64,000 nucleotides of DNA from the NCBI GenBank assembly GCA_964422025.1, contig CAYQYZ010000005.1:2743-66742 (forward strand), in the 5' to 3' direction. Shown one piece after another: positions 46,088 to 48,787 of the stretch. The notes below the pieces were generated by a model. It made no database searches. It saw only the letters and a program-made list of their open reading frames with translations, and had not been told where the DNA came from. This DNA is from an uncultured Gammaproteobacteria bacterium. GTDB lineage: Bacteria > Patescibacteriota > Microgenomatia > UBA1406 > HO2-37-13b. Each line of letters begins with the position of its first letter. Position 1 is the stretch's first letter. The translations under genes were made by a program, and so were the position numbers.

Positions 46088-46636
46088 CTATATCGGATCT
46101 TTTTTTAGCTTCAATTGAAATCCTACATAAGTTACAAGAATATGGAGAATAAAGAAAATGAGGATTGTTTGCGTGTACTCAACAATAGAAAGTGCAATGA
46201 GAGGGAAAATAAATATAGCTGCTCCCACAATATAATCAATCTGATCGTACGGAAACCAACTTTTTCCCGATTCGATGCCTAGTTGCCGTTTAAAAAAACT
46301 CTCTACCGCGTCACCAATAAGCGCTCCTGCGCCCAGGAGAGTACCAAGCATGAAAGTGCTCTGTGTGGGATAGTGCAGCAAACTTACCGTCTGTATAAAT
46401 TCTGATGATAGAAAAAGCTGTTTTTGTACATATACCGTAGCAATTCCCAATAAAATTCCAGAAATAAGTCCCCGGATTGTTTTATGGTCTCCCAATAATC
46501 TTTTTCCCCGATATTGTACGTAAAAATCCATGGGGAAATCGAGCGTTTTTAGCCACGGAATTTTGCTGGCAAAAATAGGTGCCATATTCGCAATTCCTGC
46601 GGGTAAAAAGAGCCATATGAGAGCTAGAATATTCAT
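46088..46636 (-). CDS. CDP-archaeol synthase family (CarS/DUF46) CTP-dependent lipid cytidylyltransferase
   Basis: LFLPAGIANMAP...GKRLLGDHKTIRG...GALIGDAVESFFKRQLGI..G...P.YDQID matches my recollection of archaeal CarS (GKRILGDGKTWRG; FGDLCGSFIKRRFG; DQL). Confidence 0.7.
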   Translation of the reverse strand: MNILALIWLFLPAGIANMAPIFASKIPWLKTLDFPMDFYVQYRGKRLLGDHKTIRGLISGILLGIATVYVQKQLFLSSEFIQTVSLLHYPTQSTFMLGTLLGAGALIGDAVESFFKRQLGIESGKSWFPYDQIDYIVGAAIFIFPLIALSIVEYTQTILIFFILHILVTYVGFQLKLKKDPI

Positions 46637-47550
46637 ACGTTTTTAAAAGGTAATGCCGGTAACGTAATATATTTATCGCTGTTACGTAAAAAAGTAACTG
46701 CTTTGGGCAAAACTTCGATAGACAACAACTCATCTTCGCGTTCCGGATCGCCATCTACTTGAATAAGCGACTCGCCTTTAATAGCAATTTTTGACGCTTT
46801 AAAATGCACCTTGCCTGATTCACTGTAAAACGGATGTTTAAACCCCCGCAAACGCAAATTCGTTATATACGTATATCGGCTTGAAAAAAGCGTGCAATCG
46901 AGCAATCCATCATTCAAAGCAGCAGCCGGCGATGTAAGAAAATTTTTTCCGATAATGGGACAGTTGGCGATGACTAAACTCGATGATTCGATGGTCATAT
47001 GTACTTTATCGTCGATAATGAGAGTTAGTTGTTTCTTCTTGTGCTCAATGAATCCACGTATTGCAGAAAGTACATACGAACGAATACCAATATATTTATT
47101 ATTTGCCCGCAAATGTACTATGCGCGCATCAAAACCAACACTAATATTAAATACGCCTATCGGGTGATTTTTGAGCGATGTTTTCATGAGATCAATGGTA
47201 ATAGGGGTCCCCTGTTGCAAAACATATACTGCTTTTTCAAGCGTTTCAACACCAAGACAATATGCGAGCGCATTTCCAAAGCCAAACGGAATAATTGCAA
47301 GCTGTGGTTTATGCTTCATGCTTAAAACTGCCTGACAAACGATATTTATAGTACCGTCTCCGCCGATTATGACTACCCGCGCCGGATTATCTTTTATAAG
47401 ATAATCCTTCACGTCTGTAATTTTTGTAATATCAACTGGAGTTTGTGGGAGTATGCCTGGATATTGCTTGTGTGCGCGATTCCAGCTACGCATAGCATTT
47501 CCTTCGTTTGAAAATGGATTGATTAAAAAAAGCGTTTTGGGGTTATTCAT
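46633..47550 (-). CDS. Diacylglycerol-kinase-fold lipid kinase (YegS/BmrU family)
   Basis: VVIIGGDGTIN catalytic-domain motif; family-typical length; 4-nt overlap with the CarS-like gene. Confidence 0.8.
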   Translation of the reverse strand: MNNPKTLFLINPFSNEGNAMRSWNRAHKQYPGILPQTPVDITKITDVKDYLIKDNPARVVIIGGDGTINIVCQAVLSMKHKPQLAIIPFGFGNALAYCLGVETLEKAVYVLQQGTPITIDLMKTSLKNHPIGVFNISVGFDARIVHLRANNKYIGIRSYVLSAIRGFIEHKKKQLTLIIDDKVHMTIESSSLVIANCPIIGKNFLTSPAAALNDGLLDCTLFSSRYTYITNLRLRGFKHPFYSESGKVHFKASKIAIKGESLIQVDGDPEREDELLSIEVLPKAVTFLRNSDKYITLPALPFKNV

Positions 47551-48196
47551 GGATAAAGTTTTTTTTAAGCATATTTATTTTTGGGCATAACAGCGAGTAC
47601 ATTGGAGCGTATTTTGTATGTAATTGCGCGTTTGCTAATTGACTCACGAGGGTCTGTTTAGTAATTTTATCAGAAACTGTCGCAAAACTATTCCCCACTC
47701 CTGCGCGGCAATGGGCGTCACTACTGGCAGTGGTAACAAGGGAGTGTTGGTGCGCGAGTTCCTGTACTTCCCTGTTTTTATTCGTAAACAATCCCCTACC
47801 ATTAAATACTTCGACAATATCCACATACTCTACTAGTGAGCTTAAACTGGCTACGGACAGCCCGCTACGCATCGTTTCAAACGGATGTGGAATATACACG
47901 AGTCCTTTTTGCTTTTTAATCTGTGTAATGGTTTCGCGGGCCGACAAATGGGGCTCAATTTTTTCAGAAAGAAACAGGCCAATAATTTCACCTTCAGTCG
48001 TCATGATCTCTTCCCCGACAATTATCGCTTCCCCAAGGGTTTTATGCGCCTCTTGAGCAAACGCAATTTCGTTATGATCGGTAATGGCAATGTAATCCAA
48101 TGTTCGGACAGAGAGTAAACGCGAATAATCAGAAATCGACAAACCTCCGTCGGGCGATAGTGTAGAATGAGTATGTAAATCAACGTTATACGACAT
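47543..48196 (-). CDS. PHP-domain metal-dependent phosphoesterase
   Basis: VDLHTHSTLSPDGG, AITDHN and PHP motifs. Start set at MSYNVDLH, which abuts the divergent ATG at 48197 (CATATG). Confidence 0.75.
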   Translation of the reverse strand: MSYNVDLHTHSTLSPDGGLSISDYSRLLSVRTLDYIAITDHNEIAFAQEAHKTLGEAIIVGEEIMTTEGEIIGLFLSEKIEPHLSARETITQIKKQKGLVYIPHPFETMRSGLSVASLSSLVEYVDIVEVFNGRGLFTNKNREVQELAHQHSLVTTASSDAHCRAGVGNSFATVSDKITKQTLVSQLANAQLHTKYAPMYSLLCPKINMLKKNFIHE

Positions 48197-48787
48197 ATGC
48201 TTTCTCAGTATAAACCAGCCATAGAAAAAAGAGTGACCCAATTTGCCGGGAACATTCCCCTGAGTCCAAATACGGTAACACTGCTCGGAGTTGTGCCTGC
48301 CTTATTATTCGTATATTTTTTGAATGCGGGAAATTATGCAGCCGCACTCGTGGTTTATTTAGGAAGCTTTTTGGATTTCATTGATGGTGCCATTGCCCGT
48401 TCACAAGGAAAAACAAGTAAGTTTGGCGGATTTTTGGATTCGGTTGTTGATCGCGGAGTAGATTTTATGCTCATATGCGCATTCGGATTTGCAGGTTTGG
48501 TCCGCTGGGAAATTATTGTACCCCTCGCGCTTGTTTCATTTTTAATTAGCTACGCACGATCGCGCGGAGAGCTTGCAAGCGGTGGCAGCGTTATATTTAA
48601 TGTAGGGATCGTGGAACGAACGGAGCGGCTGATTACAATATATGTAGGATTTATTTTGTTCTTACTCTTTCCATTAGTTCGTATTCAAACAATGAATGTG
48701 TTGGAGATTGTTTTTGTGATTTTACTTATCCTTTCCGGATTCACCGTGTGGCAGCGAGTGAAATATGCGTACGAAAAATTACAGTAA
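48197..48787 (+). CDS. CDP-alcohol phosphatidyltransferase
   Basis: DFIDGAIAR-x8-GGFLDSVVD matches DG-x2-AR-x8-G-x3-D-x3-D; polytopic. Confidence 0.85.
   Translation: MLSQYKPAIEKRVTQFAGNIPLSPNTVTLLGVVPALLFVYFLNAGNYAAALVVYLGSFLDFIDGAIARSQGKTSKFGGFLDSVVDRGVDFMLICAFGFAGLVRWEIIVPLALVSFLISYARSRGELASGGSVIFNVGIVERTERLITIYVGFILFLLFPLVRIQTMNVLEIVFVILLILSGFTVWQRVKYAYEKLQ

What the first reader, a model, noticed from the sequence alone, without database searches (positions are those of the whole stretch)
46088..48787. Archaeal-type CDP-archaeol synthase homolog clustered with a DAG-kinase-fold lipid kinase, a PHP phosphoesterase and a CDP-alcohol phosphatidyltransferase
Seen in sequence: 46088-46636 matches the CarS/DUF46 pattern (GKRLLGDHKTIRG; GDAVESFFKRQLG; DQID) rather than bacterial CdsA. 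It overlaps by 4 nt a YegS/BmrU-type lipid kinase (GGDGT). That kinase overlaps a PHP phosphoesterase by 8 nt. A CDP-alcohol phosphatidyltransferase is transcribed divergently, with its ATG abutting the PHP ATG (CATATG at 48194-48199).

Established knowledge: CarS activates archaeal lipids with CTP, and CDP-alcohol transferases then add the head group.

Inference: the four genes form a compact salvage route (kinase makes a phosphatidate-like lipid, the CarS-like enzyme makes the CDP-lipid, the transferase adds the head group, and the PHP enzyme may dephosphorylate a head-group phosphate). This would suit an organism that cannot make its own fatty acids and re-tailors lipids taken from a host.
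Basis: partly seen in the sequence, partly recalled or inferred. Interest (0 to 1): 0.6.

Follow-up and report, generated by a model that had tools for sequence, protein, structure and literature searches.

The report
CPR bacterial inositol-phospholipid head-group gene cluster
A tiny, host-dependent (CPR) bacterium carries a compact gene cluster that most likely turns scavenged lipid into phosphatidylinositol, using an archaeal-type CTP-activating enzyme and an uncharacterised PHP phosphatase where ordinary bacteria use other enzymes.

Summary
Four abutting or overlapping genes encode a CarS-type CTP:lipid cytidylyltransferase, a YegS/DgkB-fold lipid kinase, a short PHP phosphoesterase and a divergent CDP-alcohol phosphatidyltransferase (CAPT). 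The organism is a Microgenomates-group CPR bacterium.

- In 80 CPR loci holding a CarS-like gene, 70 have a CAPT-motif ORF within 6 kb.
- 58 have the PHP gene immediately upstream on the same strand.
- Only 13 have a DAGK-fold kinase nearby, so the core is CAPT–PHP–CarS and the kinase is an accessory.
- The CAPT is an inositol-phosphate type: its best models and solved relatives are AIP/PIP synthases, and all phosphate-pocket residues of M. tuberculosis PgsA1 are kept.
- An inositol-3-phosphate synthase gene flanks the module in 7 loci.

Best reading: DAG → PA → CDP-DAG → PIP → PI, with the PHP protein as the PIP phosphatase. That enzyme is still unidentified in mycobacteria and archaea.

CPR CarS-like proteins have the CarS fold and its conserved polar residues, but they form their own clade and score below NCBI's equivalog cut-off.

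Untested: enzyme substrates, and whether cdsA, fab and pls genes are absent from this genome. The general salvage idea was already published for one Saccharibacterium.

The parts
46088..46636 (-). CarS-type CTP:phosphatidate(-like lipid) cytidylyltransferase, 182 aa, five long helices. Proposed CDP-diacylglycerol synthase of the module.
   Evidence: PF01864 98 bits against PF01148 28.7 bits. NCBIfam CarS equivalog 127 bits, below its cut-off of 148. Family profile against PDB hits only ApCarS 5GUF, E 1.4e-21. AF2 model pLDDT 93.9, and its only PDB fold match is 5GUF, TM 0.69/0.78, rmsd 2.9 Å. Polar residues N17, D37, K52, T53, D109, K116, R117, D131, Q132, H165 and K178 are ≥90% conserved in both the CPR and the archaeal sets.
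46633..47550 (-). Soluble YegS/BmrU/DgkB-fold lipid kinase, 305 aa, GGDGT motif. Proposed diacylglycerol (or related lipid) kinase making phosphatidate. Lineage-specific accessory of the module.
   Evidence: DAGK_cat 63 bits plus YegS_C 52 bits. TIGR00147 82 bits, below its cut-off of 118.65. Nearest solved chains are YegS 2JGR/2BON, diacylglycerol kinases 3S40/4WRR and BmrU 3T5P, E 1e-8 to 1e-7. Found between PHP and CarS in 7 of 80 loci at 50-57% identity.
47543..48196 (-). Minimal PHP-domain metal-dependent phosphoesterase, 217 aa, no insertion domain. Proposed phosphatidylinositol-phosphate (head-group phosphate) phosphatase.
   Evidence: PHP 28.2 bits plus PHP_C 29.6 bits. AF2 model pLDDT 95.9. 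Nearest folds are RNase AM PHP domain 7UG9, TM0559 2ANU, PsfC 7RTY and Cv1693 2YB1. Metal-ligand positions H8, H10, D16, H41, E63, H104, D160 and H162 are invariant or nearly so and align with solved PHP enzymes, while about 80 residues of their insert are missing. Immediately upstream of CarS on the same strand in 58 of 80 loci.
48197..48787 (+). CDP-alcohol phosphatidyltransferase of the inositol-phosphate type (AIP/PIP-synthase-like), 196 aa, transcribed divergently.
   Evidence: PF01066 61 bits. NCBIfam AIP synthase 157 bits (cut-off 180), PIP synthase 98 bits (cut-off 170), pgsA 36 bits. Best solved relatives are M. tuberculosis PgsA1 6H53 and other PIP synthases. Signature residues D60, D63, G64, A67, R68, G77, D81, D85 and pocket residues R86, S118, Y119, R121, R123, R141, R144, R187 match PgsA1 R94, S132, Y133, K135, R137, R152, R155, R195 (residue roles from PMC6506517).
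48194..48199 (.). CATATG junction: the start codons of PHP (-) and CAPT (+) abut with zero intergenic bases.
   Evidence: Read directly. Equally tight (0-14 bp) divergent junctions occur in L022, L027, L040, L050, L055 and L077.

Best explanation
The cluster is a phospholipid head-group installation module of a lipid-auxotrophic CPR bacterium. It most likely makes phosphatidylinositol from scavenged glycerolipid.

Inferred steps:
1. The soluble DAGK-fold kinase phosphorylates diacylglycerol (or a related host-derived lipid) to phosphatidate.
2. The five-helix CarS-type enzyme transfers CMP from CTP to give the CDP-activated lipid. It thereby does the job of bacterial CdsA.
3. The AIP/PIP-synthase-like CDP-alcohol transferase couples that lipid to myo-inositol phosphate, giving phosphatidylinositol phosphate and CMP.
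4. The short PHP metallo-phosphoesterase removes the head-group phosphate to give phosphatidylinositol. PI may then be glycosylated.

Shown here: gene identities, folds, conserved catalytic and pocket residues, and strongly conserved gene linkage across CPR lineages, including occasional adjacency of an inositol-3-phosphate synthase.

Inferred only: every substrate, the direction of flux, and the role of the PHP protein.
For: Organism: a 98%-identical protein is named from a 'Microgenomates group bacterium'. According to PMC7242380, CPR genomes encode no complete lipid-biosynthesis pathway yet have normal membranes.

Linkage:
- In those 80 loci, 68 have a clustered CAPT (70 with any CAPT-motif ORF), 58 have PHP directly upstream of CarS on the same strand, and 53 have both. 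No other neighbour exceeds 19 loci.
- The genes often overlap by 4-16 nt.

Head group:
- The window CAPT and a representative Saccharibacteria-type CAPT both score best on AIP and then PIP synthase models, far above PgsA or PssA.
- The nearest solved structures are PIP synthases.
- All eight inositol-phosphate/phosphate-pocket residues of PgsA1 are kept in the window protein, and R155 and R195 are kept in 61 and 60 of 73 CPR CAPTs.
- An inositol-3-phosphate synthase (TIGR03450 471 bits, E 3e-141) lies within two genes of the module in 7 loci, at 47-79% identity to the reference copy, and nowhere else in 1.16 Mb.

Need for a phosphatase: all PIP/AIP/PGP synthases yield a phosphorylated head group. 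The PIP phosphatase is described as unidentified in PMC9385802.

PHP: a complete metal-ligand set and a very confident model. A relative, Cv1693, removes a ring-bound phosphomonoester.

CarS-like: CarS fold and conserved polar residues.

Kinase: nearest solved proteins are lipid/DAG kinases.
Against: - No biochemical data exist for any of the four proteins.
- All four score below the NCBIfam equivalog or subfamily cut-offs, so exact function is not transferable.
- Characterised archaeal CarS prefers DGGGP to phosphatidate, and AfCarS did not complement an E. coli cdsA mutant (PMC9385802).
- MIPS is absent from the 64 kb window and adjacent in only 7 of 80 loci. Its presence elsewhere in this genome is unknown.
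- The sulfate/phosphate pocket is reported as conserved in all CDP-alcohol transferase structures solved before PgsA1, so it does not exclude glycerol-3-phosphate as the acceptor.
- 14 loci have CAPT and CarS without a local PHP.
- PHP fusion partners point to polysaccharide or other contexts, not specifically to PI.
- The cultivated oral Saccharibacterium S. epibionticum shows no match for these Pfam families in its annotation tables, and its single CAPT is non-essential. The module is therefore dispensable in some CPR.
- Absence of cdsA from this genome was not testable.
Confidence: 0.5

Rival explanations
1. Same architecture but a phosphatidylglycerol pathway. The CAPT would be a PGP synthase using glycerol-3-phosphate and the PHP protein a PGP phosphatase.
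For: The sulfate/phosphate pocket is reported as conserved in all previously determined CDP-alcohol transferase structures. MIPS is missing from most loci and from the window. NCBIfam may lack a model for archaeal AGP synthase, which could inflate the relative AIP-synthase score (my inference). PG is the commoner bacterial lipid (general knowledge).
Against: PgsA models score only 36 bits against 157 for AIP synthase and 98 for PIP synthase. No PgsA structure appears among the significant PDB hits, whereas five PIP-synthase chains do. MIPS adjacency in 7 loci has no rationale in a PG pathway.
Confidence: 0.15
2. The PHP protein is not a head-group phosphatase. It could be a phosphodiesterase that releases DAG or PA from host phospholipids or hydrolyses CDP-DAG. 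Alternatively it is a housekeeping nuclease or pAp phosphatase that is merely co-transcribed. The rest of the pathway stands.
For: The nearest folds are RNase AM and a 3',5'-bisphosphonucleotide phosphatase. Fusions of this PHP family occur with a GT4 glycosyltransferase inside a polysaccharide cluster and with a methyltransferase. 14 loci pair CAPT and CarS without a local PHP. A phospholipase-C-like step would explain the adjacent DAG kinase (inference).
Against: PHP lies directly upstream of CarS on the same strand in 58 of 80 loci and overlaps its neighbours by up to 16 nt, which is unusual for an unrelated housekeeping gene. It lacks the roughly 80-residue insertion domain of RNase AM/BAD_1165-type enzymes and scores 24-28 bits against equivalog cut-offs of 375-400. 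A kinase is near the module in only 13 of 80 loci, so a PLC → kinase logic is not general.
Confidence: 0.2
3. A genuine archaeal-lipid route. The CarS-like enzyme would make CDP-archaeol from ether lipids scavenged from archaeal hosts, and the CAPT would be a true archaetidylinositol-phosphate synthase.
For: Both membrane enzymes score best on archaeal models: CarS equivalog 127 bits and AIP synthase 157 bits. Characterised CarS prefers DGGGP. The literature search surfaced Patescibacteria that live on methanogens (titles listed).
Against: CPR proteins form a clade apart from the sampled archaeal CarS (196 of 200 bootstraps, at most 35% identity). The module is most widespread in Saccharibacteria, whose cultivated members grow on Actinobacteria (PMC10633639). 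Four archaeal carS loci show no such clustering. The lipidomic-metagenomic study of groundwater CPR describes them as having regular lipid membranes (PMC7242380).
Confidence: 0.1
4. A soluble inositol-phosphate solute pathway (di-myo-inositol-phosphate-like) rather than a membrane lipid pathway.
For: The CAPT has a weaker hit to the IPCT/DIPP synthase family: 60 bits in NCBIfam and PDB 4MND at E 2e-7. That pathway also ends with a phosphatase (general knowledge).
Against: The cytidylyltransferase here is an integral-membrane CarS-type lipid enzyme, not a soluble IPCT nucleotidyltransferase. AIP and PIP synthase scores are far higher. A lipid kinase is part of the operon.
Confidence: 0.03

Closest known systems
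Archaeal CDP-archaeol synthase CarS (A. pernix 5GUF; A. fulgidus AfCarS)
   Same: Same Pfam family and the same five-helix fold (TM 0.69/0.78). The GD-K-T-x-G, GD…F-KR and DQxD-type polar residues are the same. Presumably the same CTP-transfer chemistry onto a lipid phosphate.
   Different: At most 35% identity and a separate clade. There is a roughly 14-residue insertion between the second and third long helices. The score is below the NCBIfam equivalog cut-off. The host is a bacterium, and the CPR group lacks complete lipid synthesis. The gene is embedded in a CAPT-PHP operon, which is not seen in the 4 archaeal loci examined. The substrate is probably diacyl phosphatidate rather than DGGGP (inferred).
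Mycobacterial phosphatidylinositol route: CdsA → PgsA1 (PIP synthase) → unidentified PIP phosphatase, with Rv2252-type DAG kinase and Ino1
   Same: Same reaction logic. The CAPT's closest solved relative is PgsA1, with all pocket residues kept. The kinase belongs to the YegS/Rv2252/BmrU family. The MIPS found in related loci is closest to the actinobacterial INO1 model.
   Different: A CarS-type enzyme replaces CdsA. The genes are clustered, whereas (from my knowledge) the mycobacterial ones are dispersed. A specific candidate, the PHP protein, occupies the phosphatase position.
Bacteroides thetaiotaomicron inositol-lipid cluster BT_1522-1526 (PMC9246714)
   Same: A gene cluster combining MIPS, a PIP synthase and a PIP phosphatase. 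It shows that bacteria do organise PI synthesis as an operon with its own phosphatase.
   Different: There the phosphatase (BT_1525) belongs to the PgpA family. Here the linked phosphoesterase is a PHP-fold protein. The BT_1523 model scores only 45 bits on the window CAPT. No sphingolipid step is present here.
Published lipid-salvage model for the Saccharibacterium 'T. rhizospherense' (PMC6031116)
   Same: No fatty-acid synthesis. Scavenged phosphatidate → CDP-DAG → PGP, cardiolipin or PI, then mannosides.
   Different: That paper, as far as I read it, did not note that the cytidylyltransferase might be CarS-type. It also did not describe the conserved CAPT-PHP-CarS operon, a PHP phosphatase, or the PIP intermediate.
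TrpH/YciV-type PHP enzymes (RNase AM 7UG9/9ETK; Cv1693 pAp phosphatase 2YB1; TM0559 2ANU)
   Same: PHP barrel with the full set of metal ligands. Cv1693 removes a phosphomonoester from a ring that also carries a phosphodiester-linked group, which is chemically analogous to PIP.
   Different: The CPR protein is about 70-80 residues shorter and lacks the insertion domain. Sequence similarity is marginal (E 1e-7 to 1e-5 with the family profile). It is linked to lipid genes rather than to nucleotide metabolism.

Membership tests
CDP-archaeol synthase CarS (PF01864 / NCBIfam NF003114) | Scores above the Pfam gathering threshold and better than on CdsA (PF01148) | tested here: met
   98 bits (cut-off 22) over residues 3-179, against 28.7 bits over residues 52-121 for PF01148.
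CDP-archaeol synthase CarS (PF01864 / NCBIfam NF003114) | Reaches NCBI's equivalog cut-off (same function assumed) | tested here: not met
   127 bits against a cut-off of 148.
CDP-archaeol synthase CarS (PF01864 / NCBIfam NF003114) | Five-transmembrane-helix CarS fold | tested here: met
   AF2 model pLDDT 93.9. The only significant PDB match is 5GUF, TM 0.69/0.78, rmsd 2.9 Å, 31% identity.
CDP-archaeol synthase CarS (PF01864 / NCBIfam NF003114) | Conserved polar residues of the cytoplasmic cavity | tested here: met
   N17, D37, K52, T53, D109, K116, R117, D131, Q132, H165 and K178 are ≥90% conserved in both 36 CPR and 39 archaeal sequences. Their individual roles could not be checked because the ApCarS structure paper is not held.
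CDP-archaeol synthase CarS (PF01864 / NCBIfam NF003114) | Branches within archaeal CarS | tested here: not met
   The CPR|archaea split appears in the NJ tree with 196 of 200 bootstraps. Best identity to an archaeal sequence is 35%. The archaeal sample is biased towards relatives of A. pernix.
CDP-archaeol synthase CarS (PF01864 / NCBIfam NF003114) | Acts on DGGGP, and GGGPS/DGGGPS are present in the genome | not testable with these tools
   No such genes in the window or among the recurrent neighbour clusters I annotated.
Bacterial CDP-diacylglycerol synthase CdsA (PF01148) | Full-length match, about 260-290 aa, with the CdsA C-terminal signature (KR-x4-KD…HGG-x2-DR, recalled from PROSITE) | tested here: not met
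   Only a partial 70-residue match. The protein is 182 aa. The signature regex found no hit in the window or the loci. No CdsA structure appears among the fold matches.
Inositol-phosphate-type CDP-alcohol transferase (PIP synthase / AIP synthase) | CAPT signature D-x2-DG-x2-AR-x8-G-x3-D-x3-D | tested here: met
   D60, D63, G64, A67, R68, G77, D81 and D85 align with PgsA1 D68…D93.
Inositol-phosphate-type CDP-alcohol transferase (PIP synthase / AIP synthase) | Inositol-phosphate / phosphate pocket residues of M. tuberculosis PgsA1 (R94, S132, Y133, K135, R137, R152, R155, R195) | tested here: met
   R86, S118, Y119, R121, R123, R141, R144 and R187. Residue roles are from PMC6506517.
Inositol-phosphate-type CDP-alcohol transferase (PIP synthase / AIP synthase) | Reaches the NCBIfam equivalog cut-offs | tested here: not met
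   AIP synthase 157 bits against 180; PIP synthase 98 bits against 170. These are still the two best models by a wide margin.
Inositol-phosphate-type CDP-alcohol transferase (PIP synthase / AIP synthase) | A source of inositol phosphate (MIPS) in the same genome | tested here: inconclusive
   No MIPS in the 64 kb window. MIPS is adjacent to the module in 7 related CPR loci, including two Microgenomates/Levybacteria.
YegS/Rv2252/BmrU/DgkB soluble lipid kinases | DAGK_cat plus YegS_C two-domain architecture with GGDGT | tested here: met
   63 and 52 bits. GGDGT seen in the sequence. Nearest PDB chains are YegS, DAG kinases and BmrU.
YegS/Rv2252/BmrU/DgkB soluble lipid kinases | Reaches the TIGR00147 subfamily cut-off; lipid substrate known | tested here: not met
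   82 bits against 118.65. The substrate is not testable here.
TrpH/YciV PHP phosphoesterases (RNase AM, pAp phosphatase) | PHP metal-ligand motifs | tested here: met
   H8, H10, D16, H41, E63, H104, D160 and H162 are invariant or ≥90% conserved and align with BAD_1165, RNase AM and TM0559.
TrpH/YciV PHP phosphoesterases (RNase AM, pAp phosphatase) | Insertion domain between the third and fourth motifs; equivalog-level score | tested here: not met
   Profile positions 76-84 correspond to about residues 83-180 of the solved enzymes, so the insert is absent. RNase RNM scores 23.9 against 375; the bisphosphate phosphatase model scores 27.9 against 400.
Known phospholipid head-group phosphatases (PgpA, PgpB/PAP2, PgpC/HAD) | Sequence membership in one of these families | tested here: not met
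   The PHP protein hits only the PHP and PHP_C families in Pfam. If it is a PIP or PGP phosphatase, it works like these enzymes but is not a member of any of their families.

The most novel reading that the evidence does not exclude
Across much of the CPR radiation, bacterial CdsA has been functionally replaced by a CarS-type enzyme acting on ester-linked diacyl phosphatidate. This would be an 'archaeal-side' lipid-divide enzyme working on bacterial lipids. The short PHP protein co-transcribed with it would be a previously unrecognised family of phospholipid head-group phosphatase, a PIP phosphatase. That would give the first concrete candidate fold for the enzyme still unidentified in mycobacteria and archaea. 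It would also imply that many CPR bacteria display inositol lipids made from scavenged host lipid.
Probability: 0.35. Interest if true: 0.7.

Novelty: new variant of a known kind. Interest (0 to 1): 0.55.

Why it matters
How CPR/Patescibacteria build membranes without lipid synthesis is an open question, and they are a large share of bacterial diversity. This module gives a concrete, testable route for re-heading scavenged lipids.

- It indicates that many environmental Saccharibacteria and Microgenomates may make inositol lipids, which are rare in bacteria and typical of their actinobacterial hosts.
- It offers a natural test of CarS substrate specificity across the lipid divide.
- It nominates a PHP-fold protein for the PIP phosphatase step, which reviews still list as unidentified outside Bacteroides.

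All four proteins are small, and the proposed assays use standard methods.

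Tried and rejected
1. Archaeal origin of the operon. I fetched four archaeal carS neighbourhoods (Infirmifilum, Verstraetearchaeota, Stetteria and one 1.36 Mb contig). 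None has a CAPT or PHP neighbour, so I found no support for PHP being the archaeal AIP phosphatase.

2. Rosetta-stone fusions of the PHP family.
- A GT4-PHP fusion exists but lies in a polysaccharide cluster without CarS or CAPT.
- Other fusions (methyltransferase, DUF4258, P-type ATPase fragment, LPG_synthase_TM fragment) are heterogeneous or probably artefacts.
- This is not specific support for a PIP-phosphatase role.

3. CdsA signature scan of 1.16 Mb of CPR loci plus the window. It gave zero hits, but only about one hit was expected by chance placement, so it is uninformative.

4. Tn-seq data for S. epibionticum. The module's Pfam families are absent from that oral species' tables, so there is no essentiality information.

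5. Promoter and terminator consensus scans around the cluster are not above shuffled expectation for promoters (9 found against 12.2 expected) and only weakly for terminators. I drew no operon boundaries from them.

6. The ApCarS structure paper is not in the library, so residue roles for CarS rest on conservation only.

8. A 'Dormibacteraeota' CarS-like hit turned out to have canonical Saccharibacteria synteny. It is probably mis-binned and is not evidence for spread outside CPR.

9. I considered a CTP-dependent polyprenol-kinase reading, from my knowledge that dolichol and phytol kinases share the superfamily. I dropped it because the CarS fold and residues are intact and the partner is a CDP-alcohol transferase that needs a CDP-lipid donor.

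Full report
**1. What is in the sequence**

The four ORFs are exactly as described.
- A 182-aa protein at 46088-46636 (-).
- A 305-aa protein at 46633-47550 (-), overlapping the first by 4 nt.
- A 217-aa protein at 47543-48196 (-), overlapping the second by 8 nt.
- A 196-aa protein at 48197-48787 (+).

The start codon of the fourth gene abuts that of the third (CATATG at 48194-48199).

Pfam assigns them as follows:
- CarS-like, PF01864, 98 bits. The CdsA family PF01148 gives only a 70-residue, 28.7-bit match.
- DAGK_cat plus YegS_C.
- PHP plus PHP_C.
- CDP-alcohol phosphatidyltransferase (CAPT).

A tRNA-Ser (48793-48884, -) bounds the cluster on the right. An unannotated 367-aa ORF and a 2075-aa RHS/YD protein lie on the left.

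**2. The organism**

The nearest database proteins (96-98% identity) come from a 'Microgenomates group bacterium' MAG. An identical copy of the cluster sits on an 11.6 kb Logan contig.

The rest of the window fits a CPR bacterium:
- Ribosomal proteins L10 and L7/L12, peptide deformylase, peptidyl-tRNA hydrolase, MreB and a sortase.
- Many large surface proteins with cohesin, dockerin or LamG domains.

No cdsA, pls, fab, MIPS or isoprenoid-ether lipid gene is present in the 64 kb. A survey of 675 CPR genomes found no complete lipid-biosynthesis pathway although the cells have normal membranes (PMC7242380).

**3. How widespread and how linked**

The best 80 are nearly all Saccharibacteria, Levybacteria/Microgenomates and Dojkabacteria/WS6.

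I extracted and clustered all ORFs within 6 kb of the CarS-like gene in those 80 loci.
- 68 loci hold a clustered CAPT, and 70 hold any ORF with the CAPT motif.
- 58 hold the PHP gene, always on the CarS strand and immediately upstream.
- 53 hold both CAPT and PHP.
- The next most frequent neighbour (ArgRS) occurs in 19 loci.

In Saccharibacteria the order is CAPT>PHP>CarS, co-directional, with overlaps of 14-16 nt. In Levybacteria/Microgenomates the CAPT is divergent, often with 0-14 bp between the start codons.

The YegS-type kinase lies between PHP and CarS only in 7 Levybacteria/Microgenomates loci, at 50-57% identity. A second, diverged DAGK_cat kinase lies near the module in 6 Saccharibacteria loci.

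So the conserved functional unit is CAPT-PHP-CarS, and a lipid kinase is a recurrent accessory.

**4. Which head group**

- The window CAPT scores 157 bits on the archaetidylinositol-phosphate synthase model, 98 on PIP synthase and only 36 on PgsA.
- A representative Saccharibacteria CAPT, only 25-35% identical to the window protein, shows the same ranking at 97, 81 and 18 bits.
- The best solved relatives are PIP synthases from M. tuberculosis, M. kansasii and Renibacterium.
- In a MAFFT alignment the window protein keeps the whole catalytic signature. It also keeps every residue that lines the inositol-phosphate pocket of PgsA1: R94, S132, Y133, K135→R, R137, R152, R155 and R195 (roles from PMC6506517).
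- A neighbour cluster present in 7 loci proved to be inositol-3-phosphate synthase (TIGR03450 471 bits, E 3e-141; PF01658). It lies within two genes of the module in Levybacteria, Microgenomates and Saccharibacteria-type loci, and nowhere else in 1.16 Mb.
- A PIG-L-family (GlcNAc-PI de-N-acetylase family) gene follows CarS in 12 loci, and phosphoglucose isomerase is nearby in 16. These are consistent with inositol glycolipid chemistry but are weak evidence.

**5. The PHP protein**

- Its family is large. The word-index search gave 2,685 proteins at E ≤ 1e-5. The exhaustive search gave 682 clusters at 50% identity with E ≤ 1e-30. The best 120 that carry a name are all from CPR groups.
- The AF2 model is very confident, pLDDT 95.9.
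- The nearest solved structures are the RNase AM PHP domain, TM0559, PsfC, BAD_1165 and the 3',5'-bisphosphonucleotide phosphatase Cv1693.
- All canonical PHP metal ligands are conserved.
- The roughly 80-residue insertion domain of the RNase AM/BAD_1165-type enzymes is missing, and equivalog scores are far below threshold. It is therefore not an orthologue of those nucleotide enzymes.
- Every PIP, AIP or PGP synthase produces a phosphorylated head group that must be removed. A 2022 review states that the PIP phosphatase is unidentified (PMC9385802). The only assigned one, Bacteroides BT_1525, is PgpA-like (PMC9246714).
- A PHP phosphomonoesterase fixed between the PIP-synthase-like and CDP-lipid-synthase genes is thus the obvious candidate. 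This is guilt by association, not proof.
- Fusion evidence was not specific.

**6. The CarS-like protein**

- The family profile finds only A. pernix CarS in the PDB, at E 1.4e-21.
- The AF2 model (pLDDT 93.9) superposes on 5GUF with TM 0.69/0.78 and matches nothing else.
- Eleven polar residues are ≥90% conserved in both the CPR and the archaeal sets.
- However, the CPR sequences are at most 35% identical to archaeal ones and form a separate clade (196 of 200 NJ bootstraps). They also carry a roughly 14-residue insertion and fall below the NCBIfam equivalog cut-off.
- Four archaeal carS genes have unrelated neighbours.
- Characterised archaeal CarS prefers DGGGP, and AfCarS did not complement an E. 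coli cdsA mutant (PMC9385802). Activity on diacyl phosphatidate in CPR is therefore an inference.
- That inference rests on three points. CPR cells are described as having regular lipid membranes. Cultivated Saccharibacteria grow on Actinobacteria. The partner CAPT needs a CDP-activated lipid donor.

**7. The kinase**

It has the two-domain YegS/DgkB architecture and GGDGT. Its nearest solved proteins are YegS, bacterial DAG kinases and BmrU. It scores below the TIGR00147 cut-off. In a cell without acyltransferases, phosphorylating scavenged DAG is the simplest route to phosphatidate. This step is inferred.

**8. Comparison and novelty**

- The reaction scheme is the known bacterial and archaeal PI route: CDP-lipid plus inositol phosphate → PIP → PI.
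- What differs is the enzyme set and the organisation. A CarS-type enzyme stands in for CdsA, a PHP protein stands in for a PgpA-type or unknown phosphatase, and all are fused into a tight operon in lipid-auxotrophic bacteria.
- Database annotators already label these genes 'CDP-archaeol synthase'.
- A salvage scheme PA → CDP-DAG → PI was proposed for one Saccharibacterium (PMC6031116).
- I found no paper in the held library that discusses CarS in CPR, the conserved operon or the PHP candidate.
- I class it as a new variant of a known kind.

**9. Limits**

- I could not read the rest of the genome, so absence of cdsA, fab and pls genes and presence of MIPS remain untested for this organism.
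- The archaeal sample for the tree is biased towards relatives of A. pernix.
- The 80 loci are the best-scoring subset of the confirmed matches, not a random sample.
- S. epibionticum apparently lacks the module, so the module is not universal in CPR.

**10. Verdict**

- Observation: confirmed.
- Interpretation: partly supported, and refined to an inositol-phospholipid module.
- Confidence in the full four-step mechanism: about 0.5.
- Interest: moderate to high, because the reading is directly testable and bears on two open questions: the origin of CPR membranes and the identity of the PIP phosphatase.

Noticed in passing
L007:7040-8002 (+); also L002, L014, L016, L054: An unannotated ORF family of about 320 aa with no Pfam or NCBIfam hit. 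In WS6/Dojkabacteria-type loci it sits directly upstream of CarS, in the slot where Microgenomates have the YegS-type kinase. By eye it has a glycine-rich loop, a VVK motif and later aspartates reminiscent of protein-kinase-like small-molecule kinases. It may be a non-orthologous lipid kinase.
   Followed up: partly
L046:8528-9250 (-) and 11 other Saccharibacteria loci: A PIG-L family (GlcNAc-PI de-N-acetylase / MshB-like) gene lies immediately downstream of CarS in 12 loci. Phosphoglucose isomerase is nearby in 16 loci, and a DUF1361 membrane protein lies upstream of the CAPT in 17. This hints at further processing of an inositol glycolipid.
   Followed up: partly
L039, L040, L071, L075, L077: In 5 of the 7 loci that carry it, the inositol-3-phosphate synthase gene is paired with a LysR-type regulator gene next to the module.
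   Followed up: no
window 48194-48199; L022, L027, L040, L050, L055, L077: The divergent PHP and CAPT genes have 0-14 bp between their start codons. Each promoter must therefore lie inside the other gene, or the mRNAs are leaderless. The consensus promoter scan gave nothing above chance.
   Followed up: partly
window 4959-10023 and 20066-20779: Several secreted proteins carry cohesin domains. One also has an M4 thermolysin protease and a dockerin (6324-9185). A pectate lyase lies at 31943-33547. Together these suggest a cellulosome-like surface assembly in a CPR bacterium.
   Followed up: no
window 37748-43975 (-) and 59299-63888 (-): Two giant surface proteins: a 2075-aa RHS/YD-repeat protein immediately beyond the cluster, and a 1529-aa protein with seven LamG/concanavalin-like domains.
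   Followed up: no
window 56179-58370 (-): Overlapping class-I/II aminotransferase-fold (Kbl/SPT-like) and zinc alcohol-dehydrogenase genes. This is probably a threonine dehydrogenase / 2-amino-3-ketobutyrate ligase pair. The aminotransferase fold is the one, from my knowledge, shared with serine palmitoyltransferase.
   Followed up: no
window 48935-50220 (-): A 'putative phage metallopeptidase' domain protein (141 aa) overlaps by 4 nt an unannotated 287-aa protein that by eye has a GS…DxD nucleotidyltransferase-like motif. Both lie just beyond the tRNA-Ser that bounds the cluster.
   Followed up: no
P0506 / L086:6001-7839; P0448; P0497: Members of this PHP family occur fused to other domains. 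One is fused to a GT4 glycosyltransferase inside a polysaccharide-type cluster with several GT4s, DegT, ATP-grasp and deacetylase genes. Another is fused to a SAM methyltransferase, and another to a fragment of an LPG_synthase_TM domain.
   Followed up: partly
L087, L088 (protein P0063): A CarS-like protein labelled 'Candidatus Dormibacteraeota' sits in the canonical Saccharibacteria gene order (ArgRS, DUF1361, CAPT, PHP, CarS, two-component system, PGI). The taxonomic label is probably a binning error. Several loci labelled Gammaproteobacteria or Pseudomonadales (L004, L022, L048, L064, L080) look similar.
   Followed up: partly
window 33628-34860 (-): A 410-aa protein of unknown function has a weak HMG-box_2 match (23 bits, just above the cut-off) near its C-terminus, which is unusual for a bacterium.
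   Followed up: no
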